Shown: positions 5,399 to 64,000, counted from the first letter of the stretch. The stretch is 64,000 nucleotides of DNA from Elsinoe ampelina (GCA_010093995.1 ML992501.1:1080632-1144631); one strand, 5' to 3'. Numbers and translations are program-made. Notes: generated by a model from the letters alone, not told the origin.

Positions 5399-8300
5399 AT
5401 GAGCATAAGTTTCCCAAAGGAGGAGGAGCGCATCCTCGCGCAATGGAACGAGATCAACGCATTTCACCGCCAACTCGAACTCTCCACATCCCGCAAACCA
5501 TACACATTCTACGATGGTCCACCTTTCGCGACCGGCACGCCTCACTATGGGCACTTGCTCGCCTCAACTATTAAAGACATCATACCTCGGTACTGGTCTA
5601 TGAAAGGTCACCATGTGGAGCGGCGATTTGGCTGGGACACTCACGGCGTACCAATCGAGCAGATCATAGACAACCAATTACAGCAAGAGCTCGGAGTGCG
5701 GGGTCGAGCAGCGGTCGAGAAGGTCGGTATAGCCGAATACAACAGGCGATGTCGGGAAGTGGTACTCACATACGCGGGAGAGTGGAGGAGGGTCATCGGG
5801 CGATTGGGGAGATGGATAGACTTCGACAACGACTACAAGACTATGGACTGCACTTTCATGGAGAGCTGCTGGTGGGTGTTCAAGCAGCTTTGGGAGAAGG
5901 AGCTGGTGTACCACGGGGCCAAAGTGTTGCCATACTCGACCGCGCTGAATACCCCGCTGAGCAAGAGTGAAGCACAAGAGGACTACAGGGACGTGCAGGA
6001 TCCAGCGGTAGTGGTGGCATTCCCGCTGGTGGACGATCCGGAGACATCGTTTCTGGCCTGGACGACGACACCGTGGACTTTACCTTCAAATGTCGGACTT
6101 TGCACACATCCGGAATTCGAGTACCTCAAGATCAAGGACGAAGAGAGTGGGAAGCAATACTACCTAGTGGAGGCTGGTCTGAAAGTGCTGTACAAAGACC
6201 CGAAGAAGGCGAAATTCAAGATTCTGGAGAAGACCAAAGGAAAGGACTTGCTGGGCAAAAAATACATTCCGCCATTCGACTACTTCTACGAGGAATTCAA
6301 GGAGGTCGGATTCAGGATGCTCAACGACGAGTATGTATCCGACAGCGAAGGCGTGGGTATCGTCCACCAGTCGCCGGCGTTTGGTGAGGACGATTACAAC
6401 ATTGCTTGGAAGGCCGGAGTCATCAACGAGTCAAGAGCACCGCCAAATCCACTGGACGCTGGAGGAAATTTCGTATTACCCGTCAAAGACTTTTTGGGCG
6501 AGCATGTCAAGGCTGCTGACAAGAATATCATGAAGTACTTGGAGAAGGCAGGAAAGCTGGTCAAGAAAGGTCAGATTACTCACAGATATCCACATTGTCC
6601 ACGATCGAAAACGCCTCTCATCCAGCGCGCTGTGCCGTCCTGGTTCATCAAGGTCGAAGGGATGGTTCCGCAATTATTGAAGAATCTGGAGAAGACGCAC
6701 TGGGTGCCATCTGGAGTCAAGGACGGACGCTTCTACAATTGGCTGGAGTCGGCCAGGGACTGGAATGTATCGCGAAATCGGTACTGGGGAACACCCATCC
6801 CTCTCTGGGTCAGCGACGATTTCAAGGAAATTGTTTGCGTTGGCAGTGTGGCGGAGTTGAAAGAGCTCACCGGGTATCAAGGCGAAATTACAGATCTTCA
6901 TCGGGACAAGGTCGACGGGCTCACCATCCCCAGCAAGCAAGGCAAAGGGACGCTCCGGCGTATCGAAGAGGTCTTTGACTGCTGGTTTGAGTCTGGAAGC
7001 ATGCCATACGCCTCGCAACATTATCCCTTTGAGAACAAGGACAACTTCTTCGACAAGTACCCAGGCGACTTTATTGCAGAAGGCCTGGATCAGACTCGTG
7101 GCTGGTTTTATACAATGTCGGTGCTTGGAACTGCTCTTTTTGACACATTCCCGTACAAGAATTGTGTGGTGAACGGCATCGTCCTTGCAGAAGATGGCAA
7201 GAAGATGTCGAAATCGCTCAAGAACTACCCCGACCCCAACCTCGTCATGGACAAGTACGGATCAGATCCTCTCCGCTTGTACATGATCAATTCTCCTGTC
7301 GTCCGCGCCGAACCTCTCCGCTTCAAGGAAGATGGCGTCAAGCAGATTGTCTCCTCTGTCATCCTCCCTCTCTGGAATTCATACAACTTCTTCGACCAGC
7401 AAGTGACCCTCCTCAAAAAGACCGAGAACCAAGACTTTAAATGGGATCCCGCAGCCGAAGCCAAAAACACCAATGTTATGGACCGCTGGATCCTCGCATC
7501 ATGCCAATCCCTCCTCGCCTTTGTCAACACCGAAATGGCCGCGTACCGCCTGTACACGGTCGTCCCACGCCTCCTCAGCCTCATCGACAACACCACAAAC
7601 TGGTACATCCGCTTCAACCGACGCCGCCTCAAAGGCGAGTTCGGCACATCCGACACCCTCCACAGCCTCAACACGCTCTTCGAAGTCCTCTACACACTCG
7701 TCCGCGGTCTCGCCCCCTTCACCCCCTTCATCGCCGACAACATCTTCCTCCGCCTCGTCCCCTTCATCCCCACCTCCCACCACGAACAAGACATGCGCTC
7801 CGTCCACTTCCTCTCCTACCCCACGGTGCGCACCGAACTCGACTCCCCCGAGACCGAACGCCGCGTGGCGCGAATGCAACGCGTCATCGAACTCGGCCGG
7901 CTCGCGCGCGACCGGCGCACCATCAGTCTCAAAACGCCGCTGAAAACGCTCGTCGTGATCCACCCGTCGGGAGAATTCCTTTCCGACGTCAAGAGTCTAG
8001 AGACGTACATCTCGGACGAGCTCAACGTGCGCGACGTGGTGCTGACCTCGGACGACGCCAAATACAACGTCAAGTACACGGTGCAGGCGGACTTCAAGTC
8101 GCTCGGGCAGAAATACAAAAAGGACGCGGTGGGCATCAAGAAGGCTCTGCCTGGGCTCACGGAGGCGGAGATCAAGGGATTTGTCTCCTCCGGCAGCATC
8201 ACGGTGCAGGGCAAGGTTCTCGGGGTCGAAGACCTCCGTGTTTCCCGGGAGGTGGTCAGGTCCCCTGAGACGAGGGACTTGGAGGCCGCGACGGAGGGGG

Positions 8301-8617
8301 AGATGATGGTCCTGCTCGATTGCGGCGTGTATGAGGAGCTCCAGCGTGAGGGACTGGCGAGGGAGTTGGTGAATCGGGTGCAGCGGTTGCGGAAGAAGGT
8401 GGGGTTGGTGCCGACGGATGATGTGAGGGTTGTGTTGGGGGTGGAGAAGGGGGATGGGGGTGAGGTGGAGGGGGTGGTGCGGGAGTATGAGGGGATGTTT
8501 GGGAAAGCAGGGCGGGAGGTGGTGGTTGGAGGGGAGAAGGGGGAGGGGGAAGTGGTGGCGGAGGAGGAGGCGGAGGTGAGGGAGCTGGTTGTTAGGGTTA
8601 GACTTGTGAAGATCTAG
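5399..8617 (+). CDS. ILS1: Cytoplasmic isoleucyl-tRNA synthetase (intronless)
   Basis: FYDGPPFATGTPHYGH (HIGH), WTTTPWTLP editing domain, DWNVSRNRYWGTP, EGLDQTRGWFY, KMSKS. ATG 5399 (MSISFPKEEE) resembles known eukaryotic IleRS starts. Confidence 0.98.
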   Translation: MSISFPKEEERILAQWNEINAFHRQLELSTSRKPYTFYDGPPFATGTPHYGHLLASTIKDIIPRYWSMKGHHVERRFGWDTHGVPIEQIIDNQLQQELGVRGRAAVEKVGIAEYNRRCREVVLTYAGEWRRVIGRLGRWIDFDNDYKTMDCTFMESCWWVFKQLWEKELVYHGAKVLPYSTALNTPLSKSEAQEDYRDVQDPAVVVAFPLVDDPETSFLAWTTTPWTLPSNVGLCTHPEFEYLKIKDEESGKQYYLVEAGLKVLYKDPKKAKFKILEKTKGKDLLGKKYIPPFDYFYEEFKEVGFRMLNDEYVSDSEGVGIVHQSPAFGEDDYNIAWKAGVINESRAPPNPLDAGGNFVLPVKDFLGEHVKAADKNIMKYLEKAGKLVKKGQITHRYPHCPRSKTPLIQRAVPSWFIKVEGMVPQLLKNLEKTHWVPSGVKDGRFYNWLESARDWNVSRNRYWGTPIPLWVSDDFKEIVCVGSVAELKELTGYQGEITDLHRDKVDGLTIPSKQGKGTLRRIEEVFDCWFESGSMPYASQHYPFENKDNFFDKYPGDFIAEGLDQTRGWFYTMSVLGTALFDTFPYKNCVVNGIVLAEDGKKMSKSLKNYPDPNLVMDKYGSDPLRLYMINSPVVRAEPLRFKEDGVKQIVSSVILPLWNSYNFFDQQVTLLKKTENQDFKWDPAAEAKNTNVMDRWILASCQSLLAFVNTEMAAYRLYTVVPRLLSLIDNTTNWYIRFNRRRLKGEFGTSDTLHSLNTLFEVLYTLVRGLAPFTPFIADNIFLRLVPFIPTSHHEQDMRSVHFLSYPTVRTELDSPETERRVARMQRVIELGRLARDRRTISLKTPLKTLVVIHPSGEFLSDVKSLETYISDELNVRDVVLTSDDAKYNVKYTVQADFKSLGQKYKKDAVGIKKALPGLTEAEIKGFVSSGSITVQGKVLGVEDLRVSREVVRSPETRDLEAATEGEMMVLLDCGVYEELQREGLARELVNRVQRLRKKVGLVPTDDVRVVLGVEKGDGGEVEGVVREYEGMFGKAGREVVVGGEKGEGEVVAEEEAEVRELVVRVRLVKI

Positions 8618-9237
8618 AGGGGAGGTAGAGGCAGTGTCAAAGTCAATGCATGAATGAGCAGGTTTTCTGGTCAAAGTTCTGTGCATTCCGTTTGGTCTAT
8701 CGGTCTGATGGTACAGGTACGGTGCTCAAGATGTACTTTGCTCTAGAGCGTTAGATGAAGGTAGAGGTTGCGGAGTATAGGTTGAGGTAGATATGTCGTC
8801 ACTGTGTCTTGGTTGGGAAGTCTCCTCAGGGGACAAGCTCAAGCTTAAGCTTCAAGTCGGCTAATTGGCTTTTGCGCCACCAGTCTCCTGATTCTGATAT
8901 GTGGACGTCGAATACGGCTGATGTGACGGTATAAGAGATGGTAAGAGGTGATCAAGATTCGAGGTCGATGTAAGGATAAAGCATTTGTACTCGAGTCTCG
9001 CTCGGCAATATTCAGGGTATGGTCGAGTATATGACGGTGAAGGAAAAGGAGGAAAAGGTCATTAGGTCGTTGAAGCGAATTGTTCCCAGGGTGTAAATCG
9101 ACGAATGGCCAGCAGATCGAGGATTGATGGCGCCATGTGATGTATCGCCCACAAAAAGATGAAGCGCCGCCGCGATGCCCGCTCGTATGGTGGTGTAAAT
9201 GACAGAGATATACAAAGAGATGGTGATGAGGCGAACG

Positions 9238-10255: not shown

Positions 10256-12092
10256 CTTTGCTCGCGTTCCGGACGGAGGAGGCGCGGGGATATCGATGCG
10301 GTCGGTCAATCAAGGCAAGACAGCCATGCGATGTCTCCAGAAGCAATTGTCGAGGACCGGAAACAGCTGGATAGGTTGATGTCAAGGACGAAGAGCCCTA
10401 GGACGGCAGAGTGGTCGGGCAGGGGTCTGGGGACTTTAGTGGAAAAGTCTATGAGGCGAGGGACGAGGATGAGACGGTACTCTCAGACTCTCAGAGAAGA
10501 CAGCAAGCCTGCAGCGCCCAATCAGCGCATCAGAGACGGACTCGCAATGATCGACGGCTGCTGCGCTCACTAAAGACTGTGACTTACAGTAATTACTCTT
10601 CAGAGCCGGGCTGCAGCTGGAAGCAAAGTCTCTCTCCCTTTCGATGCTGACACGATACAACGCGTCTGCAGCTTCAAGCAATTTATTTTTTCTGATGCTG
10701 ACGACCGTTGCACTCTTCAAGAGCCTCTTCCAAAGGTTCCTTCTGACGACGGCACAAAGGGGAGCCCTCGCAGGTGTCAGAAAAATGCCACACGGCCATA
10801 TCCGCAGCTGAACCAGGATGCAAGCCAAAATGCACAATCCACACATCATCTCACCAAAGTCTCAGGTCCCGACCGGTCCATCCTGCCACTCCTGCCTGTA
10901 ATTACCCGGTCTGTAGTCCCTCGGTCGTGTTCACTCACAGCTGGACGGGTATTCAGATCTCGTTACAGCCTCTTGATCCCGGGACGGGCAAGGCGTGGGA
11001 GAAATCGTGGATGCTGACCGGGAGCTGCACCAGCATCGCGCATTGCCCTGTGCGTCACTGCATCGCGTGGGAGCGTCAATCAACCCTGCCTCGTGCCTGA
11101 GGGTTTGCTCAGGTTCTGGAAGACCAGGGCCAAATGGCAGGAGAGTCCATGCGGCGTCCAGCGCGGTGGGATGGCTGTGCACAAGACGGCCGATCTTTCC
11201 CTCGATTATTGTGCATGCATAAATATAATGTTCAGCCCCGATATCAGTCAGCCATGCTCACAGCTGTCATGCTGCACTTTTGCAAATAATGAGCACGATA
11301 AGTTGGAGCATTTGTCCATGTTATTAACCACAAAGACATTCTCATACGCCGACAGAGCGGACAAGCATATTTTTCCGCGTGCCTGTCACCCTCGGAGCTC
11401 CCTCCACGACACCCGACCATGCCCCGGGGCCGATCCGCCTGTTCCGCGACATCTTGCCCTCCCTCGGCCCCCGTCATCTGCGCACATTTGAGACTGGCAC
11501 ACCACCATGCCCTAACCAGCAACAGCTTCAACAACAAGACAAACACGTGAACCTTCTCCCAGACTGCCCGCTCACCCAACACCACACAGACTGCCCACTG
11601 AAGCTCTCCCCTCCCAACATCCCCAACGCCACTCCCCCCATGACAGTATTCCCACAGCGTCACTGCGCCTCCCCTACCCACATCCCAAACACGAAACCAA
11701 GCTTTTCAGGCCCGCCGTCTCACAATCTCTCAGCTTCTCCCAATCGACCACTCGCAGCCAAGCAGGCCTGTCTTGGGCCGAGCTATCTTTCAGCTGAAGC
11801 TCTCTCGCGCTTTCCATTCGTCTGATTCTCGCCAAACATGGACAGCTTGACGTCTGATCGGGATCTGCTGGGCGTGAGGACTGCATGTCATGGAACGGGC
11901 ATGGTACGGACGTAGCCGTGAGGATCGTGGGAGTGCGTGATGGGGGACTTCCGTTGTTGTCTTCATCGTCGATGCTGCATCTTGTGATTGATCGTGTGTG
12001 CTGTCACGTGCGGTATACAAGCAGGCGAGCTAAGTGACTGTATTATATTTCTTGCGCCGTAACGCCTTGCTAGAACTCGAGTGTACACTGTG

Positions 12093-15000
12093 TCAGAACC
12101 CAAAACTATCCAGGATGCTGTTCGCATCGGGCTCTTTGAATGCGGTAGGTTTCTTCTCTTCGAGCACGCTCTGCTGCTCCTCTCTAGTCTTGTCGGCCGC
12201 CTTTTTCTTTTCCTGCTTTGGCGCGTCTTCAAAGGCGTCCAGCATTGATGCCGTCTTCGTCTGCTCCTTCTTGGGCTGTTCCTCAAAACCATCCAACATC
12301 GACGGCACTCTCGTCTCCTGCTTGGGCTCGTCAAAGCCATCCAGTATACATCTCACTTTCGGTGCCTCCTTCTCCTCCGCCCCAAACCCATCAAGCATAC
12401 TCGGCACCCTCCCCGTCCCTTCCCTCGTCTGGTCCAGATCATCGACCACCAAACTACTCCTCCTCCGCAATAGCTTCCTCGGATCCCTCGTACTCGTCGG
12501 ACTCCGCGGCAACTCCCTCACCTCTTCCACAGCCTCCTCCTCTTCCTCCCTCCTCCCCGTCTCCGCCCTCAAAAACTCCCAGTTCCTCACCAGATCCAGC
12601 GCCAAAACATCACACCCCATCCTCCTCAACAACCCCGCCGTCCTCGTCAAAAACCTCCACTCCTCCACCGGCTGAACCATCAACGCCCCTCTCAACGTCT
12701 GCAGACTCTTCCCCCTCAACTGCTCATACAACACCACCAACGCCGGATCATCATTCAAAAAACTCTTCGCCCTCAACCCATCCCCCACCTCCTCCTCATC
12801 CTCCTCATCCTCCCCCTCCCCCCCACCCAACTCCTCCAACCTCCCCACCAGCGCCCTCACCGCCTTCCCCTTCTCCCCCAAAAACCACAACCCCCAACTC
12901 ACCCCCCACCGATCCCCCCTCCTCACCGCCTCACCCACCACCCTCCTCCTCACCAAATCCCTCACCTCCCCCGCCTCATCCCCGCCGTAAACCCTCCCCA
13001 CCGCGACCGCCATCTCCACATCCCCGAGCTGATTCTCCAACACCCCCAACGCGGCCCTCAGATCGTCCGCCAGCAGGAAAAACGCAGCCGCGTACTCGAA
13101 CCGCCTCTTCCCCATGAGCGCAAACGCATTCTTCCTCGCCGCCGTCCGCCACCGCGCTTCGCTGAAGTCGTTGCGCAGCAGCCGCATCGTGGCGCCTTGT
13201 TCCCTCGACCACGTCGCCATTCTCCAGAGCCCGACGAGGACGGGTTTCTTGCGCAGCGCGAGGTAGTGCAGGCTGCAGTCGACGGGGTTGCGGGGGTCCG
13301 ACGAGGTGTAGGCTGATTTGGCGAGGGATTCGAATTGTTCCAGCAGAGTGGTCCGGGAGGTGAGGAAGGTGAAGAGGCGGGATTGGCGGGCTAGAGGCCA
13401 GGTGAGGGATGGGGTGGAGGAGGAGGGCGAGGGGGGGACGATGAGGGGGATGAGGAGGTCTTGGGACGTAGAGTGGTAGGCGAAGAGGACTTCGCGGTAG
13501 GGGATGGGGGAGGGGGAGAGGGTCCGGGTTTGGTGGGTCCGGAGGAGGTGGGAGCGCCAGAAGAGGAGGAAGCGGGAGGCGTTGCTGTCGATGGAGCGGG
13601 AGTGGAGGGCGACGAGGGAGATGCAATCAATGATGGAGGCGAGCGAGGCCTGTTCGGAGGAGGTGAGTTGGGGGATGGATTTGGTCGTGAGATAGTCAGT
13701 GAGGGAAGTGGCAACGCTGGTCGTGATACTTTTCGAGTCATCGTCGGTGTAGGATCGTGTGCCATTCGTGAGCGGTTTGTTCTGTCCGCTATTAGTATTC
13801 ACGCTCTACGTGATGCTCATAGTCAAAATACCTCATCCACTGCAGCAAAGTCGCTAACCTCGAAACCAAGCATCGCATCTATCTCATCACCTTCGGTGTA
13901 GAATTTCAGCACCTGCAGTAGCTTGAGCAGTACCTTCTGCACAACGTCAAGCTTATCGGCAAGCACGCACTGCATGATAAATTGAGGATGAAAGACCGGC
14001 AGAGGACCATTCATCCGCCTCACCAGCTGGTGGATGTGACTTGCTCGATTATGGGGTATGGACGACTGCAACTCGGGTGATAAATCCTTCTGCAGGTCGA
14101 CGGTGTTGCTTGTGAGATACAACTGATTCCCAGCTCCAATGGCAAGACTTCCGTCGCTCAACCAAACCGAGTCGCCGATCGGGTGGGGATTGGAAGACGG
14201 TAGCACGACCTCTTTGATTCGCGCCCAAGCTGGTCGTTCACTAACGTAGTCGTACCGCTGTTGTGAGAGGACATGCACACGCCGTGGAAAGCCAACAGCC
14301 AGTATTGACTGTCTATCTGGAGTTGCTGCCCAGTCAAGGTCTTGGATGTAGTCATCGAACCTCTGATCATGATCCAGTCTCCCAGACCGTGTGTCCCAGA
14401 TTGTCAGTCGTTGTCTGGAGTTGTCAACCAAAGCGGCTCGGCGAATCGAAGTCGCACTGCCAAGTGCAGGATCAATCAACCCAGTCTCGATGGTAGACGT
14501 GGTGAGAAAGTCTACACTTTGTTGTGTGATATTGACCCGGGCTGTATGAGTTCGGAGCATGCCCGTTGCGGAATATGACATGGCCACATCATGGGCGAAG
14601 GTGTCCAAAAAGTCAGATGCCGTGGCTTCACTACCTGCTGGATCCACCGGAAGTACGTATTTGACTCGATCCATGGCGTCGAGTTGGAATGTACAGTATC
14701 GTGACAGAAATGACTTCTCGCCGCCATCGTTCGTGGCGGAGAGAGAAGCTGGTATATTCGCGGACCAGACCCTGCCAGACATGTTCTCGTCGATAGCTGC
14801 TAGATGTACCACATCATCCTCGAGCTTCGGAAGTGTGAGCAGACAGAGCGGCTTCGTCTTGCTGTCGTACGCAGATCTTGCTATCTCTGTAGCATAGTAC
14901 GCTCTTGTATCCCACAATGTCAAGTTGTCATGGTGCAGGCAAGCCAGAAACTGTCCATCCCGGAGCAAGACCACTCTATGAATGTGCTCCTTGATGTCAA

Positions 15001-41733: not shown

Positions 41734-41922
41734 ACGTAGACCCGGTTTCCTTTGTTCCCGGATACTCATGCGAGGGAAGCGAGTCAAGTTGTATTGACAT
41801 GGGACATGACGTGTACGCATGACCGCAACCGAAACCTTCTGTCATCTGAGCTTGCTTATCGCTTTTCGCCACCTTCTTTCCTTGTCGATCGCTGATCAAT
41901 CCAAAGTGTACACAACAGCAAG

Positions 41923-42114: not shown

Positions 42115-42126
42115 ACTCAATCCATC

Positions 42127-46216: not shown

Positions 46217-48143
46217 TGTGGACCGCAGAGATATGGGGAAAAGGTGCAAAGTGCAACCAACGTGATCTTCAAGCTCGAGACGAGAGCTCACCTATATAGT
46301 ACCTACCACTGCCAGCACGATCGGCCCTTTCTTCTCTCTGTCACAGGGGGCCCCGCATACCTAACACCGCTTGGCCCATCTTGACCACGGGCAATCTGCA
46401 ACATATTCGTTTTAGCGCTGATCTGTCGTGCGTCTGTTTGCATCTGGGGGACCGGGCGCAGACATGGTTACATCGACAGATGATAGGGCGGAGAAGAGCT
46501 TGGTCTGTGACGTGCGCAGAATCAGGCAGAGGGTTGTCGATCGAGGACATGGCGTTTGCGGCGCAAGTGATGCAGAAAAGGTTGAAGGTTTGAGCACGGA
46601 GCAGTGGCCAAGACGACCCCCGCGAAGGCAGCGGTGGAGCGGCTTCCCTTTTCGAGCATACCAAGGGCTCTACCAAGGTCTTGTCGCTGATGCTCAACCA
46701 ACACTCACCGAGACGACGGAAAAGCTGTCGGAGAGAGTCAGCCGTGCTCAGATGACCCTTTCTCACTCGCAAATTGCTGCATTATATTAATCGTTTGCGT
46801 CGGTGGCGCGACCGGTACGTTTGTCGACCAGATAAGACCCCCAACATGCACGACAAAGTCAATAACAAGGCAAACCCCATCGACGACCACAACGAAACAG
46901 AGTTCGACCAAGCTTCGCAAGACCACAAGACCGCAAGGCAAGCAGAGTGACAACCAAGACATTTCTGCATGCATCGAATGCTCACCGTGTCCGCATCTGC
47001 AAAATTTTCCTTGCTCATCTCACAGCAGTAACTACCACCGAACAATTCCGCCCTCACGCGGGACCTGTCGTCCAGACCACACGGCACGGGATCAGATCAT
47101 CTCCATCGCCGGGCTTCAGGACCTCATCGCCTTTCTCCCGCAAGCCCTCCCCGCCATCGCGCCCCGGCAGACATTGCCGCGCCCGCGATCAACCTCCAAG
47201 CCATGTCCCGCAAGCCACCACTGCCAGTGGCGCCCGCACCAACTTTAGGCCGGACATGCCGAAAGTCAACTCCATGTCTCATCGCGGTGGAGACACCTTA
47301 ACACGAGAAGGTTTTGTAATAATGCATTTCGAGCTCGCCGTGCGCCAACTTTGCCCGCAAAGTAATAACATGAGGGTGGATCTCCGCGCCGCGCAAATGT
47401 TTCTGCTTCTCCCGAGCCGCATACATCTAGACTACACCTGCCAATCCGCGTGGCACGGACAACAGTGCGGCGACAAAGCGAAAAGTAGGCAACTTACACG
47501 TAAGCCTTCCACCTCAGACATCATTGCATCTCCCTCCAAAAGATTGCTTGCACGACCCCACCCCCTTCATCAATCCCAAGTCATAATAATCCCCCCAACG
47601 ACATCATCAGGCCCTCCCCTCCATTTGCCTGAACCACCCTCGGCCATCCGATCCGAGCACAAACCCAGTTGGTATTCTCCACACCCAACACCCTCCCTCG
47701 AGTCACTCACGACGAATACGGACCATCACGCATCGCAATCAAATATCGCGCATCGGCAGTGCAACGTGAACGTACTTCTTCGCGTCTTCTAGCAGCGGCT
47801 CAGGCCAACATGTTGGGTATCCACGTCTTGCATCCACCGCTACGGCATCGAATCTCGCTCACGCCGTCTGTCACTCGACAGCGACGATCGTGGTTCCTCG
47901 CAACACTTCCCCTGTCCATCGCGCCTTCTTTGCATGTTCTAGCGCGGTCCCAACGAGACGTAGAACGTCCGTGATCGTCTCCTGCCGGTGCCCAAAGATA
48001 GCCCAGACCATTCCGACATCGCTGCCTTCAGACCTCATCCAGTATTCCAGTCCGACAGAGCCAACCCCATCCTGATCCCAACTCGAACCTCCAAACCTTC
48101 CAGGTCCAGACCAAGCCCCTTCCAATGCTCCAGACATACTCCA

Positions 48144-51100
48144 TCACTTCAACCCAAACCCCTCACTCCCCTCCACCGCCCCCCTCACCATCTCCACAAG
48201 CCGCTCCTTACTCTCCCACCCCCACAACTGAACCAAATTAAAACAAGTCCTCGCAACAGGGTACCTCTCCCTACCCTCCCTCCCCGTCCCGTCCCCTCCC
48301 ATCGCGATCCGCAACACCAACCCCGCCGCCCCCGTCGCCGGCACCCGATCACTGCTCGTGATAAACTGCAACAGCTTCCTCTGATCCCTCGGTTCCGCTT
48401 CGGAGAAATACTCCCAGAACCAGCGCACGACGGGGACTTGCTCGTCGACGTTCGTCTTGATCACCTCCTCCGGCCGGTCGGGGCGGCGGAAGTTTTCGTA
48501 CACGGCCACGGCGCGGAGGGCGTCGACGTCGATGCGCTCTTCTTCGGAGCCGCGGATGAGGAGCTCGATTTCTTCGGCGCGGAAGAGCGAGAGGGCGTTG
48601 CCTGCGCAGACGGTAAAGAAGCCCCGCTTGAAGGGCTCGAATTGGCGCGCGACGGAGATGTCGAGGAGGTAGCGGATGTAGAGGGAGACAAATTCGTGAC
48701 GGTTGGCGTTGGTGACGGCCTTGTTTTCGCCGCCGGGGATGAGGGGTTGGTCGGTGATGACGCCGTAGCGCTCGATGGGAACGGTGAAGGACCAGAGGTA
48801 AGTGTTTTCTACGTCACCTTCGTAATCGAGAAGCTGGCGGAGCCCGGCGGCGAGGGAGGGGCGGTATTCGGCAAGATCGTCCAGCGTGTAACTCATGTTG
48901 TTCTTCACGGGCGCTGATATGGTAGAAGGACTGGAAGGTGCGGAGGCCATGAGTTTGCGAAAGGCGAATGAAGGTAGAGCGACGTCGAGTATTGTTGAGT
49001 TATAGATGGCGAGGCCCAGAAGTACACCTACCATGTAGTACTGATCTGATGTCTCGAAGGAGTGAGGATTAAAGTAGCACAATTGTGAGTCAGGGTCGTA
49101 CAAGAAGAGCCCGTGGTAGGGATCGAAGATGTCGCGAACTAGCAAGAGGAACCATTCTTTCTTGAGTCCACCTGCGTCGATGCCCTCTTCGCCGGAGAAG
49201 TGTACCCGTAGACCTTTCTTGAGGTCACCCTGCAGTTGTCCCACGGCCTCTCCAATTCGCGACAGACTGTCCTCGACCACACACTCCCGCCGCACATGTA
49301 GATGAAATTGTACGTCTTGGGCCCGCCCGGAAATGACGTTGTTGAAGTATGTCTCTCGTGCCTTTGTTTCCATCTGGCGCCTGGCATCGTACTCAAGTAT
49401 CCTGATTTTTGACCCCATCGAGAGGAAGAAAGGATATTGGCAGAACGAAAACTTGCCCTTTCGTGCTTCCCATATCTTGAAGTCTCCAATGACATCTTGA
49501 TAGTCAAGCATGGTATTGTAGAAATCAGATACCGGCAGTAGCTGACCATGGAGCTTCGAGCGAGGTCGTGAGTCCAGAACAACGTCTTCAACAGGAGTAA
49601 GACTTCCATCAGGCTTCGGCCAGGAATTGTTGGCCGCAAAAAGAAGAGCCATGACTTTAGCGGCTGATCTGAGCTGCCAGTCATCGCCATAGTCAATATT
49701 CCCAGGTTCCTCCTTTTCGTTCTTCACTCCACCACTGAGACCCGCCGCAGTCTGGAGCTGCGTAGAAGTGCGCATCGCTGATCCCGACAAGTCAGGAATA
49801 AGCCCACCGTCATCCACGAAATTACCGCTTTTAGGGCGAGCTCTTCTACGTGCCAATCGGTACGAGACGAAGCTCGACACGAGATCGACGAAATCCAAAT
49901 ACCGGCCCTCTGGCATTCGACTGAACCAGCCGATCAAGTACCGATGGCACACTTCCGATGAGCCAACAAGTAATCCAAGACTCCGTTTCAGTATCCCTGC
50001 ATGCTGGCCGGGCTCTCGTGCTTGCTTCGCCGAGGTCGAAGGTCTTCTCCCGCCAGCGCCTCGTCCACGTGAGGCATAGAGCCTCCTCTCCTGGATATAC
50101 CTTGGGTATATAAGCGGATTCGACAAAATAACTATTAAGAATCTTATATCTTCAGGTTCAGCAAGTGGTCGTCCGGGTCGTCGTAAGATGTGCTCGGTAA
50201 CTTTGAATAGGGCCCGCTCTACATGTCCGCGAGCAATATTGAGATCCAGCTCTATTTCTGCGCGAAGCTTTGACTCGGCTTCGAATTGTTCCTGGTCGCC
50301 GTCCCGTAACTGCGTGATCCTCTTGGCTTTCTCGATCCACCCTCGATCTGGTGTCCTTGCTGTCTCGTACCACTTGTCAAGTCTTGACCAGTCGATGCAA
50401 GGCGATTTCGGAGTCACTCCCTTCCTTGATGGCGCAGGCCGTTCTTTGGCACGATCGGCTCGCTCCGAGAAATTTCGCTCGAGCCGTCCAGTCCACCAAT
50501 CTCCGTTCTCCATAAAGTCGCCCAGCAGGAGTGTTTTGGCGTCAATTTGAAACATTTCATCGTTGCGTGGTATTGCTTGCTGAGGCAGAGCAGGGGTCGA
50601 GCCGTCCATGGGTTCGGGCGGTGGTGTCCGCAGCGCACTCTCGCTATGTGTTCGGCCTGTCACTCTGGGTCTAAACGTGCTGAACGAAGCATTGAGTGAT
50701 TCATGCCGACCATAGTTCTGTTGAATGTGATCTTCCAGAGGTTTGAATATTCGCTTTGCGCGCTCGTAACGTTCCAGAGGTACTCTCTGATCGGGTGTCA
50801 CTGGTCCAGTATGCCTGGGCGGAGGGCGTCCTTGCGCCGGTCGTCCCGAGGGATGCCTCGTCGGCATCTGCGAAGGCGTACCTGGAAGGGGCGGTGCTTT
50901 CCGGCCTGGTACATTTGGGACCGGCTTTCGAGGGATACGTGTAGCAGGTCTTGCATTGTCCGACAGGGGTGAGGACGACAATTTGACTTCCGATGAGAAG
51001 GTGAGGTGGTCGAAGTCGGCGAAGGACCTGATAGATGCAGAAGGCGGCTCATCAGGAGTGGAAACATTGGACTCCACAACAACCTCTGGGTAATCTTCAA

Positions 51101-58537: not shown

Positions 58538-59219
58538 GAACCACATCGCCGGACACGAATCCGCAAGACGAATTCATCCATTGCATCGTCACTCTCGTGA
58601 CGCTCTCGCTCTTTTGAAACTTCACGACTCCCACCATTGGCTTAATACTCCTCGCCGACATGACTCACGACACGACTTGGCTTTCAGGCCGACTACTCTC
58701 GGCCGACGACTTGCGCTCCATGAGAGCGAGACTGTACTCTACCTCGCATCTACCGTGCTTTTTTTTTTCTTTGTTGCAGGCTATGCCACATATATAATCA
58801 CCTCAATAAGCGCATGGTGTTTTTGGCGCTTTTGGAAGAAGGAAAGGCATTTGCTATCATCGCCCCGACTATAGGGGCCACCACAACCTGACGGTCTTTA
58901 ATTGTGTAATTCGAAGCGGGGGAATGTAAAAGGGGAGTTGACCATAGTCAGGGGCCAGGATACGGTTGCTGGACGGATGTGACCGGTTGGCTTGCATGAA
59001 GGAAAGGACCAGGGGAAGGTTGAATATACGTAGATGGAGCATGAAGGGACAAGACACCTTGATCTGCCTCTCGTAAAGACGTGTTTGACAGTGTTGATTG
59101 AGTTTTACATTTCGATTTTGGTCCTCCCAAACCGCCTGCATTTTTCCAGCGACTTGTGCAGTCTGGGTATACCTGCCTTCCTGATGATACGCCGGCCACT
59201 TTACCTGCCACTCGCCTGG

Positions 59220-60858
59220 TTACTCCATCTTGTTTTCGTCCTTTGGCTTCTCGTCCTTCTTCTCCTTCTTCTCCTTCGCCGCGCTCTCACCATACCTCTT
59301 CCGCTTCTCACTCCAATACCGCCATCCCCTACTCACTCCCGCCGTCGCCAAGCCCTTGATGCTCTGACTCGTGCTCGGCCACGCTATCGTATTCCGCACG
59401 CACGTCTCCACTTTCTGAGCAATGTCCGACTCCATGGCGATTCTGCGCTCAAAGTCGCCTGCTTCCCGCTTGCCGATGAAGCTCTGCGCGTCTTCGTCTT
59501 TGCTTTCGTCGATGATCTTGTCGAATGCGCTTCCCGGGATGGCGAACTTCTTGCGGTATTGGTAGTAGAGCTTTTGCCGGAAGAGACGGGGAAGACGGCG
59601 GACCATGTTCCCGCGACGTTGTGCGGACATGTCTTGTTGCATTTTGAAGCCGTCTGGGCCGCCGATGATCTCGGCGGGGTTGCGCGTGTCGGCGCTGCGG
59701 GCCATGACGTCTTCGCGCTCCCAGCCTGCCTCGAGAGGGATGCGAGAGTCGTTGAAGGCGACGTTGGGGAGGGTGTCGATCAGGGGAACGTAGAGCTGGC
59801 GGAAGTTGGGGAGCTGGTTGCGGACGATGTTGCGGACTTTGCTGGTGTTTTCGCTACCGAAGGACATGCGAGGATCGCCGAGATAGGAGATGGATGTGAT
59901 GGTCTCGTAGAGCTGGCGCTCGGTGAACTCTTCCGGAAGCATGAGCAGAGCTGTCCGTACCGCGGACATGAGGTTGATTTGGTTCGCGAGGCGGACCCGG
60001 GGATCGTCGCGGAGGATCTTGACAGGCTTCTGCAGGCGACCGGCAATGTACAGCGTGTCCCATTCGGAGAGGTCGCGACAGATTGTGTCGAGATTAACAA
60101 CACCATACTTAATCATAGTCCCGTTGACTGTGATGTAAGGGTTGAAGTAGACGCCAGCGCCCCAGCTGTCTTGGATCTTCGACACGGTGTAAGAACCTAG
60201 ATACTTCAATGCAGAGTAGTGCTCGGGGTATTGTTGAAGGTTGATCGACTGCCAGTGATGGGTATATGAAACACCAAATATGAAGTCGATAATCTTAGCA
60301 CCGTTCTCCTGCCATTTCTTGATCGCTTCGGGAGGATGCGGGTGTGGTGACAGCGCATCTGGGCTGGCCGGTTTGTTGGATTGGGAAAAGACACCGCTGC
60401 CATATGCAAAGGCATAACGGATTGGCGCCTTGAACTCCCATAGTATCTGCCTCAGAGCCTCCTTGAAATCCTCATTGACTCGGATGTGTTGATTTGTACC
60501 AAAGTACTTGTGCGGCAGTTCGGAGAAGGTCTTGATGCTCAAATCTGGATTGTCCTCCCATCCCTCTGGCATTGACTGATTGGAGATGTCGCTCGAAGTA
60601 GGAGAAGGTGTCGGCTCTGTCTTGACCGGCTTCTCGAAGGATGGGGTGAAATGTTTGGTGTCATCCTTCTTCTCGGTAGCATATGTCTGCGTTTGCAAGC
60701 GGAAGCATTGTGGCCGGTGCTGCCATGTAAGCTGACCAAGGATGAAGCTGTGGCCAGCTACGAGAGGCTTGAAGCCGCGGGTCGTCTATTCACAAGTCAA
60801 TGCCAGCCATGTAGCGGCTTGTGGAAGAAGAATGTACCGAAAGTCTTCGCAAAGACAT
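59220..60858 (-). CDS. TAM41: Mitochondrial phosphatidate cytidylyltransferase Tam41 (Mmp37); intron 60786-60837
   Basis: IRYAFAYGSGVFSQ, IIDFIFGV, GAGVYFNPY, LYIAGRLQKPV, ISYLGDPRM. Exon 1 MSLRRLS splices to TTRGFKPL, giving a presequence-like N-terminus. Confidence 0.95.
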
Positions 60859-61191: not shown

Positions 61192-63559
61192 ATGGCTGAT
61201 CCCACGACAGACATGCGCATGTACGAGAACAGACTTGCGACGTTCTCCGAGCATGATCATCCAGCAAAGAAGATTCAGACGTCGCAAGGAAGGGGTGTCG
61301 CAAAGAGCTGGCCTCACGAAACTCCAACAGCGAAAGATGTTTGTTTATTGTAGCTGCATGCTAGACTACTAGCTGACGTCGCGCAGCTAGCTTTTGCTGG
61401 TTTCTATTTCGCTCCGACATCTAACAGTGAGGACAACGTCAAATGCTTTCACTGTGAAGTCAAGCTGGACGGCTGGGAGATCGACGACAGCCCCCTCAAG
61501 GAGCACATAGCACACTCGGCAGAATGTGCATGGGCTATTACTACGTCGGTCGCACTTGACAACGAAGATCGTGACCCAATGTCAGAGAAGCTGCTTACCG
61601 CAAGACTCGAGACTTTCGGTAGCTCGTGGCCGTACGAGAAGAAGCGAGGATGGAAGCCTAAGTCGAAGAAACTGGCTGAAGCAGGATGGAGCATGGATCC
61701 TTCATTACGTGCAGAGGACGGAACTACATGTTTCTATTGCCAAATCTCGCTCGACGGATGGGAGGCGAAGGATGATCCAATGTAAGTCCCGCGACGCGCA
61801 AAAGTGTCTAGACGTTGACGTTCGCAGTGAGGAGCACCGAAAGCGACAGGATAATTGTCTCTTCTTCGATCTTCTCGACCGCTATGCATCCACCCGACCC
61901 AAGAAAGGTCGCTCTAGAAATTCGACTGCCTCAAAAGCATCCCGCCTGTCCACCCAATCCATTCAATCTACCTTCTCGGAAGCGCCATCATTTATGTCCC
62001 TCGGGGACGCCGCGCCAAGTCTGGAGCTTGAGAGCAGCATTGGGACAATCACGAGCATGACGTCCACAGCCAAAGGCAAGAAGAAAGCCCCAAGTGCGAA
62101 AAAGGGTGGTCGAACAAAGAAGAAGGCGGCAGATGAGTCTGACATGACAGGGATGGAAACGGCCATGACCACCCTGGAAGAGACACTGGCGCCGTCACAG
62201 AGTCTATTACAAGGAACACAGGAAGACACGCAAGCCGAGGTGAAGAAGGAACCAGCAAAGAAGGCGACTCGTGGAAAGGGCAAAGGTAAGAAAGCCGCAG
62301 ACAAGGTCGCAGATGAGACGGAGGATCAGAGTCAATTGCAGTCGGAGCTGATGGCAGCGGCGACAGAACCAGAGCCGAAGAAGCCGACCACAAGAGGAAA
62401 GCGTGGCAAGAAGCGGACCAGCGATGGGGAGGAGAAGCCCCAAGAAACACAAGAGGCGGTCACAGAGCCGCCAACAGAACAGGTGATGGAACCAGTCCAG
62501 GAAGTACCGGTCAAAGCGAAGAAGGGCAAGCCAACACGGGGTAAGAAGGCAAAAGCTGCTCAAGAGGAACAAATTACAGAGGCACCGCCGACCAAAGAAG
62601 TACAGCCTATGGACATTGACGAGCAAGTGCTCGAAGTCAAGGAAGAGGCAGCGAAGCCGAAACGTGGAGGAAGGAAGCCCAAAGCCACCAAGCAGGCAAA
62701 GCAAGCGACACCGGAGCCAGAACCACATGTCGAACCTGAACCCGAGCCGGAGATACAGGTCGACGACCCTATGGAAGATGAGTCTGGAAATTATGTCGTC
62801 CATCCTGCGGAAGAAGAGTCCGAGTCCAACTACGTGGTCCATGCTGGAGAAGAAGAGTCAGACGCGAACTACGTGGTCCACGACGAGTCTTCTGCGAACT
62901 TTGTCGTTCACGATCAAACACCAGAACCAGCCGAGTTCGAGCCAACACCGACACCACAGAAAGCCCCTGCAGCAAGGAAGCCGTCTCCTGAACAGCCAAC
63001 ATCAACGCACTCTTCGCCACACAGCGTCCGCAGCCAGCAGTCCTCAGACGCGGAGAACCATCCGCCTTCGTCCAGTGCTCGCACGTCAAAGCGTGTATCC
63101 GGAGCCATCAATGCCAAAGCACTGCCTCCTGCGCCTTCCCCGCCACCCCATGCCGCCGCACCAGTCTCGATCCATGCACCTCTGCTATCACCAGTCAAGA
63201 CGTCTCGCGTCCCTCTTGCAGCACAAACGCCAAACCGCTCACCATCGAAGCACTCGCCCACCAAGCTTGGCTATCTGAAAGCTCGGACCCCATGGTCGGC
63301 CATCGATATCGAGACCATCTTCCCTGCGGATGGGCAAGAGAACGAGGGCACCGGCGTGGCTAAGAAGCTCGCCGAGCTTGGAGGCCAGCTGACAAGTCCG
63401 GAGAAGAAGATGACAGTGGAGGAGTGGATCCGCTTCCAAGCGGCAAAGGGAGAAGAGAGACTCAAGGACGAGTGCGAACGACTCGTCTGGTTGTTCGAGC
63501 AAGAAGGGACAAGAGCTATGGGTGTCTTGGAAGGAGTTGAGATTAGGGGAGAGACCTAG
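61192..63559 (+). CDS. BIR1: Bir1/survivin, chromosomal passenger protein with two BIR domains; introns 61339-61386 and 61782-61827
   Basis: RLATF..WPH..LAFAGFYF..DNVKCFHCEVKLDGWE..EH..C; second BIR RLETF..WPY..CFYCQISLDGWEAKDDP|IEEH..C; C-terminal EKKMTVEEWI helix. Confidence 0.94.
62780..62917 (+). repeat. Four degenerate coding tandem repeats (ES.xNYVVH) inside BIR1
   Basis: ESGNYVVHPAEE-ESESNYVVHAGEE-ESDANYVVHD-ESSANFVVHD; the DNA AACTACGTGGTCCA is repeated exactly twice. Confidence 0.85.
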
Positions 63560-63704
63560 GAGGAGACTTTCCTGGCATGATGACCCGGGATGAATGATGG
63601 ACTGAAAGGTTATGGGCGGATGGAACATTGTTCGACATTGGATACTGCCTGACAAACATCCTGTACCCAGCTCAGGAGAAGCGTACACAGCGCTGCGAAT
63701 GCAT

Positions 63705-64000
63705 TCATCTCCCATTCCCAACCCCACACCCACTCCACCCCACAAACCCTTCCTGAGGTTTCACCCCCCTCACCGCCCTCCCACTCCCCTGATCCCCCAA
63801 CACCAGCCCCGTCCCCTCTTCAAACGTCCCCCACCCCTCCCCCCTCAACCCCTCCGGATCCCTCGCAAACTCCACCCACAAATCCTGCATCCTCCCACTC
63901 GTCTCCAGCTCAAACCTAGTCGACTTCCCCAGATTCTCCATCGTGCCGAACAACAACGGCAGCTCCGAGCTATGATACGCCCCCTGCCCTTGCGGGGAGA
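63705..64000 (-). CDS. Type-B carboxylesterase, C-terminal part (gene enters from the right edge)
   Basis: GAYHSSELPLLFGT (catalytic His motif) followed by MQDLWVEFARDP..GW. Confidence 0.8.
   Translation of the reverse strand, partial: SPQGQGAYHSSELPLLFGTMENLGKSTRFELETSGRMQDLWVEFARDPEGLRGEGWGTFEEGTGLVLGDQGSGRAVRGVKPQEGFVGWSGCGVGNGR

What the first reader, a model, noticed from the sequence alone, without database searches (positions are those of the whole stretch)
7200..64000. Recurrent C-rich to G-rich skew-switch domains every ~2-18 kb, overriding coding constraints
Seen: at about eight loci the + strand runs, left to right, from strongly C-rich/G-poor through a GC/CpG-rich centre to strongly G-rich/C-poor. 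The loci are ~7.2-8.6 kb, 11.4-12.0, 12.3-13.7, 22.9-23.45, 40.8-41.7, 48.0-48.9 and 59.2-60.0 kb, plus a C-rich half at 63.7-64.0 kb. The pattern reads the same on both strands, so it is independent of gene orientation. It usually sits in the 3' third of a gene, and neighbouring genes lack it. Inference: a site-fixed bidirectional process is acting. Candidates are stable replication origins (leading/lagging mutational asymmetry), recombination/DSB hotspots (resection plus GC-biased conversion at the centre), or selection for long C:G fold-back RNA or R-loop structure linked to termination. I know of no named element for this.
Basis: partly seen in the sequence, partly recalled or inferred. 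Interest (0 to 1): 0.8.

Follow-up and report, generated by a model that had tools for sequence, protein, structure and literature searches.

The report
C-to-G skew islands at gene ends
In this Elsinoe-type plant-pathogenic fungus, the last 0.7-2 kb of some genes switch abruptly from almost G-free, C-rich DNA to almost C-free, G-rich DNA, which looks like the mark of a strand-specific mutation process tied to transcription.

Summary
Seven complete C-rich to G-rich islands, one weaker one and a cut-off C-rich half lie at or near the stated coordinates.

In five annotated genes (IleRS, Rav1, sedolisin, HECT ligase, Tam41) the spatial order of synonymous codons beats 500 of 500 synonymous shuffles (z 4.7-12.9). 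Seven control genes do not. Pooled four-fold sites reach 69% C in the C-halves and 76% G in the G-halves, against about 25% in controls. The complementary base is avoided, and amino-acid composition shifts too.

The islands sit at the 3' ends of transcription units and run into UTRs. Independent RNA contigs carry the same sequence. The Rav1 island shows at protein level across Myriangiales. It is absent from the DNA of 28 of 31 other fungal orthologues, but weaker copies exist in distant fungi.

There is no arm complementarity beyond composition and no shared centre motif.

Best reading (confidence about 0.4): an extreme, local form of the known fungal gene skew (coding strand C-biased upstream, G-biased at the 3' end). 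The likely cause is strand-specific single-strand DNA damage and repair during transcription, of the R-loop type. A replication origin, a recombination hotspot and a selected hairpin are weaker rivals. I class it as a new variant of a known kind.

The parts
7200..7950 (.). IleRS island, C-rich half (sense strand C-rich; inside the anticodon-binding part of the CDS)
   Evidence: Four-fold sites C 0.72 and G 0.13; two-fold R sites G 12 / A 21. Skew -0.32 to -0.36.
7950..8250 (.). IleRS island centre: GC3-rich, both C and G; cumulative-skew minimum at 8079
   Evidence: Four-fold sites C 0.37, G 0.46, A+T 0.17. Minimum at 8079.
8250..9100 (.). IleRS island, G-rich half: the last 365 nt of the CDS (stop codon ends at 8617) plus about 480 nt of non-coding 3' flank shared with the convergent AhpC-like gene
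   Evidence: Four-fold sites G 0.71 and C 0.11; two-fold Y sites C 2 / T 8. Non-coding 8621-9100: C 0.16, G 0.31, T 0.28. Skew +0.38 to +0.49 out to 9100.
11380..12056 (.). Weaker island inside a lowly covered transcript (RNA contig 11188-12056): C-rich 11400-11800, G-rich 11900-12000
   Evidence: Skew -0.35 to -0.67, then +0.33. RNA contig and adapter-flanked end at 12056. No Pfam hit for its ORFs.
12250..13150 (.). Rav1 island, + strand C-rich half. This is the sense G-rich half of the minus-strand Rav1 gene, near its 3' end (stop at 12093).
   Evidence: Skew -0.63. Sense four-fold sites G 0.85 and C 0.07; two-fold Y sites C 8 / T 39.
13150..13800 (.). Rav1 island centre (switch at 13232) and + strand G-rich half (sense C-rich). 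It ends just before the intron at 13782-13831.
   Evidence: Skew +0.55. Sense four-fold sites C 0.75; two-fold R sites G 1 / A 13. Intron seen in RNA contigs of runs X3 and X6.
22800..23500 (.). Island covering a whole small minus-strand ORF (22974-23531, no Pfam family); switch at 23129
   Evidence: Skew -0.59 / +0.44. Sequence read. No family found.
40750..41800 (.). Sedolisin island (plus-strand gene, stop 41733); switch at 41127
   Evidence: C-half four-fold C 0.63; G-half four-fold G 0.62. Shuffle z 9.6.
47000..49100 (.). HECT ligase island (minus-strand gene, stop 48144). + strand C-rich 47000-48400, including about 1.1 kb downstream of the stop. Switch at 48471. + strand G-rich 48650-49100.
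   Evidence: Non-coding 47000-48143: C 0.37, G 0.19. Shuffle z 7.7.
59150..60050 (.). Tam41 island (minus-strand gene, stop 59220); switch at 59535
   Evidence: Third-position skew +0.76 in the last 42 codons and -0.43 to -0.64 over codons 251-400. Shuffle z 4.7.
62750..63650 (.). Weak island at the 3' end of the BIR-domain gene (stop 63556); switch at 63324
   Evidence: C excess 76 and G excess 64. G-rich 63401-63650. Not significant in the whole-gene shuffle (z 1.5).
63651..64000 (.). C-rich half of a further island, cut by the window end
   Evidence: Skew -0.56. Three G4 motifs on the minus strand.

Best explanation
These are transcription-unit-anchored skew islands, an extreme and local form of the fungal gene skew in which the coding strand is C-biased upstream and G-biased at the 3' end.

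**Proposed mechanism (inferred, not shown).** In each half one DNA strand is repeatedly exposed as single-stranded DNA during transcription. It is the non-template strand displaced in an R-loop, which forms where the nascent RNA is G-rich. On the exposed strand, cytosines are lost: deamination to uracil gives C->T, or C->G after abasic-site bypass. Other damaged bases are replaced through C insertion opposite abasic sites. The exposed strand therefore drifts to G-rich and C-poor.

A G-rich transcript makes R-loops more stable, so the process reinforces itself. Sense transcription drives the half next to the poly(A) site. Antisense or read-through transcription drives the other half. Where the two zones overlap, in the centre, both G and C accumulate.

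The result is a mutational by-product strong enough to change amino acids in essential proteins. It is not a selected hairpin.

**Shown:** the composition pattern, its codon-class signature, its 3'-end position, its persistence in relatives, and the lack of specific arm pairing.

**Inferred:** single-strand exposure, R-loops, antisense transcription and the repair route.
For: 1. **Codon classes, pooled over five genes.**
   - G-halves: four-fold G 0.76 and C 0.07; two-fold R sites 93% G; two-fold Y sites only 31% C (controls 55%, Fisher p 8e-7).
   - C-halves, the mirror image: four-fold C 0.69 and G 0.12; two-fold Y sites 84% C; two-fold R sites 42% G (controls 59%, p 0.0013).
   - One base is gained and its complement is lost on the same strand. 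That fits strand-specific damage. It does not fit a symmetric drive towards G and C.
2. **Not tied to translation.** Skew continues into non-coding 3' flanks, where C is depleted and G and T are raised without any rise in GC (8621-9100: C 0.16, G 0.31, T 0.28).
3. **Position.** In five annotated genes the switch lies 315-1139 nt before the stop codon, and the sense G-half reaches the 3' end. One small ORF lies wholly inside an island.
4. **Same polarity elsewhere.** The sense C->G order recurs at a kinase 3' end (L048) and across a small HODM-like gene (L064) in other fungi.
5. **Transcript ends.** Two facing, adapter-flanked RNA contig ends at 12038 and 12056 coincide with the place where two sense G-halves meet.
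6. **Sequence potential.** G-halves hold 18-45 G3+ runs per kb against a window mean of 10.5, and 12 of 13 G4 motifs lie in island halves, always on the G-rich strand. These are sequence features recalled as favouring R-loops.
7. **Precedent.** McLean & Tirosh 2011 (PMC3315797; Results part 1 and Discussion read) report C bias at 5' ends and G bias at 3' ends. The bias affects four-fold sites and amino acids, and extends into UTRs. Ginno 2013 (PMC3787257, listing only) links terminal GC skew to R-loops and termination. The abstract of PMC11230362 (listing) states that uracil in single-stranded DNA is fixed as C->T or, through abasic sites, C->G.
8. **Not an artefact.** RNA contigs of two other samples match the island DNA with 0-1 differences, which excludes assembly error and RNA editing.
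Against: - No R-loop, strand-specific RNA or antisense data were available. Only unstranded contigs could be laid.
- Only about 8 of roughly 28 genes carry an island. Several housekeeping genes (Uso1, Sfi1, the kinase) do not. The model does not explain that choice.
- Islands do not depend clearly on a convergent neighbour. By my approximate gene models, 6-7 of 16 convergent 3' ends carry one, against 2 of 8 tandem ends. An antisense source is therefore not evident for the small ORF or for HECT.
- Simple transcription-associated mutagenesis would skew the whole gene one way. The C-half needs dominant antisense R-loops inside essential genes, which is an ad hoc assumption.
- GC3 peaks at the centre (0.88). 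That profile also suits a centre-focused conversion process.
- In fungi the coding strand just downstream of start sites is reported as C-rich, so a 'divergent promoter at the centre' version conflicts with the known fungal polarity.
- No substitutions could be polarised, because no DNA of close relatives was obtainable.
Confidence: 0.4

Rival explanations
1. Evolutionarily stable meiotic recombination hotspots lie at the island centres. GC-biased repair of heteroduplex DNA raises GC3 around the break. A mismatch-specific step, for example G·T to G·C on the strand that differs on the two sides of the break, gives T->C on the left and A->G on the right.
For: - GC3 peaks at the centre (0.85-0.88) and falls outward.
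- Half-lengths of 0.35-1.1 kb resemble conversion-tract or resection lengths (recalled).
- The density of one island per about 8 kb is hotspot-like (recalled).
- Position is stable across relatives.
- Exonic hotspots are reported in another Dothideomycete (PMC5844332, passages read).
Against: - The unfavoured G/C base is actively avoided: two-fold Y sites are 31% C in G-halves and two-fold R sites 42% G in C-halves, against 55-59% in controls. Plain GC-biased conversion would push both upward.
- With 5'->3' resection from a central break, the + strand is the single strand on the left. Single-strand damage there predicts G-rich left and C-rich right, the opposite of what is seen (inference from established geometry).
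- Non-coding flanks are skewed without any rise in GC.
- No shared motif at the centres.
Confidence: 0.17
2. The islands are selected elements acting in RNA or during transcription. A G-poor, C-rich stretch is followed by a C-poor, G-rich stretch. Read in either direction this works as a pause or termination signal, or it pairs into a long imperfect fold-back at the mRNA 3' end.
For: - The islands are transcribed and lie at 3' ends.
- Predicted minimum-energy folds pair the two arms: 187 of 229, 266 of 419 and 111 of 349 pairs cross the centre.
- Position has been kept across an order of fungi.
- G4 motifs are concentrated in the islands.
Against: - Shuffling bases within 25-nt blocks, which keeps local composition, gives equally stable folds (z +0.24, -1.17, -0.38).
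- The inverted matches found are only 71-93% complementary low-complexity stretches of 14-45 nt. Nothing therefore points to specific pairing.
- The element costs amino-acid changes in conserved proteins.
- The centre lies 315-1139 nt inside the CDS, an odd place for a sense terminator.
- No Rfam family matches.
Confidence: 0.12
3. 3'-anchored gene conversion by reverse-transcribed RNA. cDNA primed at the poly(A) tail of the sense RNA, and of an antisense RNA, carries RNA-level or reverse-transcriptase base changes back into the last 1-2 kb of the gene.
For: - The islands are anchored at transcript 3' ends and reach at most about 1.7 kb upstream.
- The Rav1 island starts just downstream of the gene's only observed intron (13782-13831).
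- The G-half signature on the sense strand (C->T-like, A->G-like) is what damage or editing of a single-stranded RNA would give (inference).
Against: - Only one intron coincidence supports it.
- It needs an antisense polyadenylated RNA ending at the far edge of every island.
- The HECT island runs about 1.1 kb past the stop codon.
- RNA contigs show no differences from the DNA.
- No reverse-transcriptase source was seen in the window.
Confidence: 0.07
4. The islands are fixed bidirectional replication origins. The skew switch reflects leading/lagging mutational asymmetry, as at bacterial origins and mammalian skew jumps.
For: - The polarity (C-rich left, G-rich right on the + strand) is the one expected at an origin (established for bacteria; recalled).
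- The switch is sharp, within 30-400 nt.
- Position is stable in relatives.
Against: - Skew returns to about zero within 0.35-1.1 kb on each side rather than persisting across a replicon.
- An amplitude of 0.5-0.65 is far above any replication skew known to me.
- One island per about 8 kb, with centres always inside coding sequence near 3' ends, does not suit origins.
- No shared centre motif.
Confidence: 0.06

Closest known systems
[quoted passage not shown]
   Same: - The coding strand is C-biased upstream and G-biased at the 3' end.
- The bias affects four-fold sites and amino-acid choice.
- It extends into UTRs.
- The authors read it as transcription-linked mutational pressure.
   Different: - That report concerns a genome-averaged, modest gradient over whole genes in yeasts.
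- Here only about 8 of roughly 28 genes are affected, and only in their last 0.7-2 kb.
- The switch is sharp, third positions are near-saturated (69-85% one base) and GC3 is raised.
- The 5' parts of the same genes are unskewed.
GC-skewed R-loop-forming regions at CpG-island promoters and gene 3' ends in human (Ginno et al. 2013, PMC3787257; listing and start of abstract only)
   Same: - G-rich non-template strand.
- Association with 3' ends and termination.
- Bidirectional CpG-island promoters show the same C-to-G switch shape (recalled).
- G clusters and G4 motifs sit on the G-rich strand.
   Different: - Human terminal skew lies around and downstream of the poly(A) site (recalled) and is much weaker.
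- Here the island lies mostly inside coding sequence and remodels codons.
- R-loops were not measured here.
Strand-coordinated mutation clusters in single-stranded DNA (Chan et al. 2012, PMC3521656; abstract of PMC11230362; both from the search listing)
   Same: Loss of C from one strand, with both C->T and C->G outcomes, switching strand at a point.
   Different: - Those are single events, whereas this is an evolutionary steady state.
- At a resected break the switch has the opposite polarity (inference).
- Here there is also a strong gain of G from A and T.
Replication-origin skew switches (bacterial oriC, mammalian S-jumps)
   Same: Sign and sharpness of the switch.
   Different: The range is about 1 kb rather than a replicon, the amplitude is about ten times higher, and the centres lie inside genes near their 3' ends.

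Membership tests
Fungal 5'-C / 3'-G gene skew (McLean & Tirosh) | Coding strand C-biased upstream and G-biased at the 3' end | tested here: met
   5 of 5 annotated island genes, plus the small ORF, show it in sense orientation. The same polarity holds in L048 and L064.
Fungal 5'-C / 3'-G gene skew (McLean & Tirosh) | Seen at four-fold sites and in amino-acid usage, and extending into UTRs | tested here: met
   Four-fold sites 0.69 C / 0.76 G. Positions 1+2 reach G 0.40-0.43 or C 0.38. Non-coding flanks are skewed.
Fungal 5'-C / 3'-G gene skew (McLean & Tirosh) | A gradient over the whole gene, common to a large share of genes | tested here: not met
   The 5' parts of island genes are unskewed. 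7 of 12 tested genes show no significant step.
R-loop-forming GC-skew region | Sustained G-rich non-template strand with G clusters | tested here: met
   G-halves are 41-48% G (counts) and hold 18-45 G3+ runs per kb. 12 of 13 G4 motifs lie in island halves.
R-loop-forming GC-skew region | RNA:DNA hybrid detected on the predicted strand | not testable with these tools
   No DRIP-type data exist and only unstranded RNA contigs were available.
Replication origin skew switch | C-to-G polarity at a sharp point | tested here: met
Replication origin skew switch | Skew persists across the flanking replicons | tested here: not met
   Skew returns to about 0 within 0.35-1.1 kb.
GC-biased gene conversion island at a recombination hotspot | Local rise of GC3 | tested here: met
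   GC3 0.77-0.88 against 0.5-0.65 in controls.
GC-biased gene conversion island at a recombination hotspot | Both G and C favoured over A and T, whatever the strand | tested here: not met
   Two-fold Y sites are 31% C in G-halves and two-fold R sites 42% G in C-halves, both below controls.
Inverted repeat / hairpin RNA | Arms complementary beyond what composition gives | tested here: not met
   Block-shuffle z +0.24, -1.17 and -0.38. Only 14-45-nt low-complexity matches, 71-93% complementary.
Single-strand damage cluster at a resected double-strand break | C lost from the 3'-ended strand: + strand to the left of the break, minus strand to the right | tested here: not met
   The + strand is C-rich on the left and C-poor on the right. 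The geometry of resection is established knowledge.
Tandem repeat / low-complexity expansion | Head-to-tail repeat units | tested here: not met
   Only two weak TRF rows, both inside the Rav1 C-half; no other island has any.

The most novel reading that the evidence does not exclude
A self-reinforcing, R-loop-type mutational runaway creates heritable, site-fixed skew islands about 1-2 kb long at the 3' ends of particular transcription units. Once a transcript's 3' part is G-rich enough, hybrids expose the coding strand, which loses C and gains G, which in turn stabilises the hybrids. The same happens on the other strand for antisense transcripts. In Myriangiales this process has run for the whole history of the order. 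It is strong enough to rewrite third positions to 70-85% of one base and to push G/E/V/R or P/T/L/S residues into essential proteins such as IleRS and Rav1. It would be a new class of local, strand-switching mutation hotspot in eukaryotic genes.
Probability: 0.3. Interest if true: 0.8.

Novelty: new variant of a known kind. Interest (0 to 1): 0.6.

Why it matters
If the islands are mutational, they are among the strongest local strand-asymmetric composition effects that I know of in nuclear genes (recalled). They would be a natural long-term record of where one DNA strand is chronically exposed.

They show that a non-adaptive DNA-level process can override codon usage and change amino acids in essential, conserved proteins over long periods.

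They also give a sequence-only marker, the switch point and its edges, that can be tested against transcript ends, R-loops, origins and recombination maps in a small, tractable fungal genome.

On the practical side:
- The extreme G- or C-rich stretches break short-read RNA assemblies and cause chimeric contigs.
- They create long spurious ORFs in other frames.
- They could mislead gene prediction, codon-usage statistics and tests of selection in these genomes.

Tried and rejected
- **Whole genome.** None is held for this window, so no genome-wide scan was possible.
- **Sequencing runs.** No RNA holder was listed on record. The RNA-like runs were guesses kept as contigs.
- **Reads laid.**
  - The two presumed relatives gave almost nothing usable. 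X13 matched only a 37-44-nt G-rich stretch at several places of its own genome.
  - X12 gave short, low-depth pieces, and 162 of its differences were not shown. Substitutions could therefore not be polarised.
  - Contig depth and contig ends were not used as expression evidence.
- **Selected hairpin.** Rejected as explained by composition alone.
- **Shared motif at switch points.** None convincing; the best 7-mer occurs in 5 of 8 centres.
- **Rfam, tRNA and tandem-repeat scans.** Nothing relevant.
- **Codon-usage coding-potential track.** Tried in order to orient the unannotated stretches (10.3-12.1, 21.7-23.0 and 46.1-48.2 kb). It was too weak to decide.
- **Dependence on a convergent neighbour.** Considered and dropped: 6-7 of 16 convergent ends against 2 of 8 tandem ends, with approximate gene models.
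- **Tam41 protein-implied skew.** Uninformative, because the protein is too constrained.
- **RIP.** Rejected because GC rises rather than falls and A/T do not accumulate at four-fold sites.
- **CpG-methylation-driven decay.** Not supported: centre CpG observed/expected is 0.73-1.39 and not systematically depleted.
- **Strict restriction to Myriangiales.** Rejected after weaker islands turned up in distant fungi.
- **Literature.** Searches for a report of such islands in Elsinoe or in filamentous fungi found none. They cover only the held open-access library.

Full report
**What the window is.** It is nuclear DNA of a filamentous ascomycete of the Myriangiales.
- Pfam finds ordinary fungal genes: XRN, Uso1, isoleucyl-tRNA synthetase (IleRS, + strand, 5336-8617), an AhpC-like gene, Rav1, Sfi1, a purine permease, TauD, a large NACHT-ankyrin gene, a P450, an aspartyl protease, a sedolisin, a sugar transporter, a HECT ligase, a kinase, Tam41 and a BIR protein.
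- The IleRS protein is 87% identical to those of Elsinoe australis and Sphaceloma murrayae.
- The spliced Rav1 protein is 100% identical to the Elsinoe ampelina record in 21 of 24 sixty-residue bins. The window is therefore that species or a very close strain.
- RNA-like contigs from two other samples match the DNA with 0-1 differences over long stretches. They show two introns, at 9690-9738 and 13782-13831, both on the minus strand. The sequence is therefore neither an assembly artefact nor an effect of RNA editing.

**The observation.** It holds.
- In 400-nt windows the skew reaches -0.65 at 12401-12800 and +0.68 at 8401-8800, against a background near zero.
- Strongly skewed segments pair up as C-rich then G-rich at 7.45-9.1, 12.25-13.8, 22.8-23.5, 40.85-41.8 and 47.0-49.1 kb. 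Weaker or incomplete cases lie at 11.4-12.0, 59.15-60.0, 62.75-63.65 and 63.65-64.0 kb.
- Shuffling synonymous codons within each gene never reproduces the C->G step in IleRS, Rav1, sedolisin, HECT or Tam41 (0 of 500 each, z 4.7-12.9). Uso1, Sfi1, the NACHT gene, two unnamed ORFs, the kinase and BIR give z between -1.1 and 2.6.
- The pattern is therefore present or absent, not a general gradient. Third-position skew in the last 300 nt is +0.33 to +0.87 in the five genes, preceded by -0.5 to -0.7. It is near zero elsewhere.
- Sharp G->C steps exist too. They are island edges or the meeting of two islands, as at about 12040 and 63650.

**Anatomy.** Pooled over the five genes:

| Region | Four-fold sites | Two-fold Y sites, share C | Two-fold R sites, share G |
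|---|---|---|---|
| C-halves | C 69%, G 12% | 84% | 42% |
| G-halves | G 76%, C 7% | 31% | 93% |
| Controls | about 25% each base | 55% | 59% |

- Each half thus gains one base and avoids its complement on the same strand. Where the code forbids the favoured base, the site goes to A in C-halves or to T in G-halves.
- The centres are rich in both G and C (A+T 3-17% at four-fold sites).
- First and second positions shift as well (G 0.40-0.43 or C 0.38), and the proteins show it. The IleRS tail has G, R and V where E. australis has K, A and F.
- The skew continues past stop codons into non-coding DNA. There C is depleted and G and T are raised without any rise in GC.
- The switch lies 315-1139 nt before the stop codon in the five genes. 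One small ORF of no known family lies wholly inside an island.
- Two facing RNA contig ends that carry adapter sequence, at 12038 and 12056, mark where the Rav1 island meets the weaker 11.4-12.06 kb island. I read these as two overlapping convergent 3' ends. That reading is an inference from the adapter orientation.
- Islands carry no shared motif at the switch, no Rfam family, no tRNA and almost no tandem repeats.
- They hold 12 of the 13 G4 motifs of the window, always on the G-rich strand.

**Is it a hairpin?** Predicted folds do pair the C arm with the G arm. But sequences shuffled within 25-nt blocks fold just as well (z +0.24, -1.17, -0.38). The best inverted matches are low-complexity stretches of 14-45 nt at 71-93% complementarity. 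The pairing potential follows from composition; nothing indicates selection for specific pairs.

**Persistence and spread.** No DNA of close relatives could be fetched. I therefore scored each orthologous protein for the G-minus-C content that its amino acids impose on codon positions 1 and 2.
- For Rav1 the window gives -0.26 and -0.48, then +0.04, then +0.53 and +0.73 across the island.
- E. batatas, E. fawcettii, Myriangium duriaei and S. murrayae show the same sign pattern at the same alignment positions, with falling amplitude. Dothideomycetidae sp. 11243 is weaker.
- Five other Dothideomycetes are flat.
- The IleRS G-half is shared with E. australis and S. murrayae. Tam41 is too constrained to tell.
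- At DNA level, 31 metagenomic Rav1 orthologues give a mean step of 0.00 (sd 0.15) at the equivalent place, against 1.27 in the window.
- Two related contigs from a distant fungus (31-33% identity, L041 and L045) do show a clear third-position switch about 950 nt before the stop: -0.58 then +0.46 to +0.73.
- A scan of all 80 loci (391 kb) finds 7 C->G and 4 G->C pairs, against 4 and 1 in the 64-kb window. L066 and L067 are near-duplicates and L041 and L045 are related, so these counts are not independent.
- Two of these cases, a kinase 3' end and a small HODM-like gene, keep the sense C->G polarity.
- The phenomenon is thus not unique to this order, but it is about four times denser and much stronger here.

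**Mechanism.**
- The codon-class signature calls for a strand-specific process: on one strand C is lost and G is gained.
- Established chemistry offers one such process. Cytosine in single-stranded DNA deaminates readily. The resulting uracil is fixed as C->T or, via an abasic site, as C->G (abstract of PMC11230362). Insertion of C opposite abasic sites, which I recall for yeast Rev1, would turn other damaged bases into G on the exposed strand.
- The exposed strand must then be the + strand to the right of the switch and the minus strand to the left.
- That is the geometry of the non-template strand of transcription moving away from, or through, the centre. It is also the geometry of lagging-strand templates at an origin. 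It is the opposite of the 3' tails left by resection of a central break.
- The short range (0.35-1.1 kb per side), the anchoring at transcript 3' ends and the G-cluster content favour R-loops over replication.
- A feedback loop, in which a G-rich transcript gives a more stable hybrid, more exposure and more G, would explain the all-or-none character.
- This is an extreme local version of the skew described by McLean & Tirosh. It also resembles the terminal GC skew of human genes (Ginno 2013, listing).

**What this leaves open.**
- Why only about 8 of roughly 28 genes carry an island.
- What transcribes the C-halves in antisense.
- Whether the central GC3 peak reflects overlap of two damage zones or a conversion process.
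- A recombination hotspot remains the main rival. It needs an unknown strand- and mismatch-specific repair rule to give the observed polarity and the avoidance of one G/C base.

**Comparison and novelty.**
- The pattern meets the qualitative features of the fungal gene skew: polarity, four-fold sites, amino acids and UTRs.
- It fails the feature of a gene-wide, genome-wide gradient.
- It meets the sequence criteria of R-loop-prone DNA, but hybrids are untested.
- It fails the defining features of an origin skew, a plain GC-biased conversion island, an inverted repeat and a resected-break cluster.
- My four literature searches found no description of such kb-scale, near-saturated, sharply switching islands in Elsinoe or other filamentous fungi. 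They cover only the held open-access library, and I read no supplements.
- I rate it a new variant of a known kind.

Noticed in passing
window 8392-8770 and 12753-13043; joint 8573->13499: Short-read RNA assemblies break exactly at the most extreme G- or C-rich stretches. One contig of run X6 joins the IleRS G-half to the Rav1 G-half across 4.9 kb, which is an assembly chimera through shared low-complexity words.
   Followed up: partly
window 12038 and 12056: Two RNA contigs end 18 nt apart, facing each other. Both ends are flanked by the same sequencing-adapter side. This suggests overlapping convergent 3' ends of Rav1 and of an unannotated, lowly covered transcript at 11188-12056 that has no Pfam family.
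   Followed up: partly
window 7441-8268, 12218-13117, 47988-48917, 59034-60200 and others: The islands create long spurious ORFs in other frames and on the opposite strand, because G-free or C-free DNA is poor in stop codons. Two such ORFs (47988-48917 and 59034-60200) gave no Pfam family. The rest were not scanned but overlap the real genes.
   Followed up: partly
window 62000-62800 and 4000-5200: Strong A-over-T skew (AT skew +0.35 to +0.59) with mild G excess. These are purine-rich coding stretches in the BIR-domain gene and in the C-terminal part of Uso1. They are a different kind of asymmetry from the islands.
   Followed up: no
window 27989-34533: A large gene with a nucleoside-phosphorylase-like N-terminus, an NPHP3_N/NACHT-type NTPase and more than 15 ankyrin repeats. 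This is the architecture of a fungal NLR-like protein, and it carries no skew island.
   Followed up: no
L041 2701-3900 and L045 2701-3900: Two related metagenome contigs from a fungus only 31-33% identical in Rav1 carry an intronless Rav1 ORF of about 1318 aa. It has a weaker third-position C->G switch about 950 nt before the stop. This is independent recurrence, or deep retention, at the same gene.
   Followed up: partly
L064 4551-5550; L048 3101-4100; L080 4451-5150: Comparable islands (skew about -0.4 / +0.45) lie next to Rav1 orthologues in other fungi: one across a small HODM-like gene and one at a kinase 3' end.
   Followed up: partly
run X13, matches to window 8533-8578: A DNA run of another coded organism matches only this 37-44-nt G-rich piece, at two places of one contig and on two further contigs. 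The flanks there are also G-rich and C-poor, hinting at similar tracts in that genome.
   Followed up: no
relatives' locus tags: IleRS, Rav1 and Tam41 are close neighbours in other Dothideomycetes too. Examples are tags 079920/079900 in Dothideomycetidae sp. 11243, tags 4221/4224/4228 in sp. NU457, and 004283/004284 in Neodothiora. Gene neighbourhood around the islands is therefore old.
   Followed up: no
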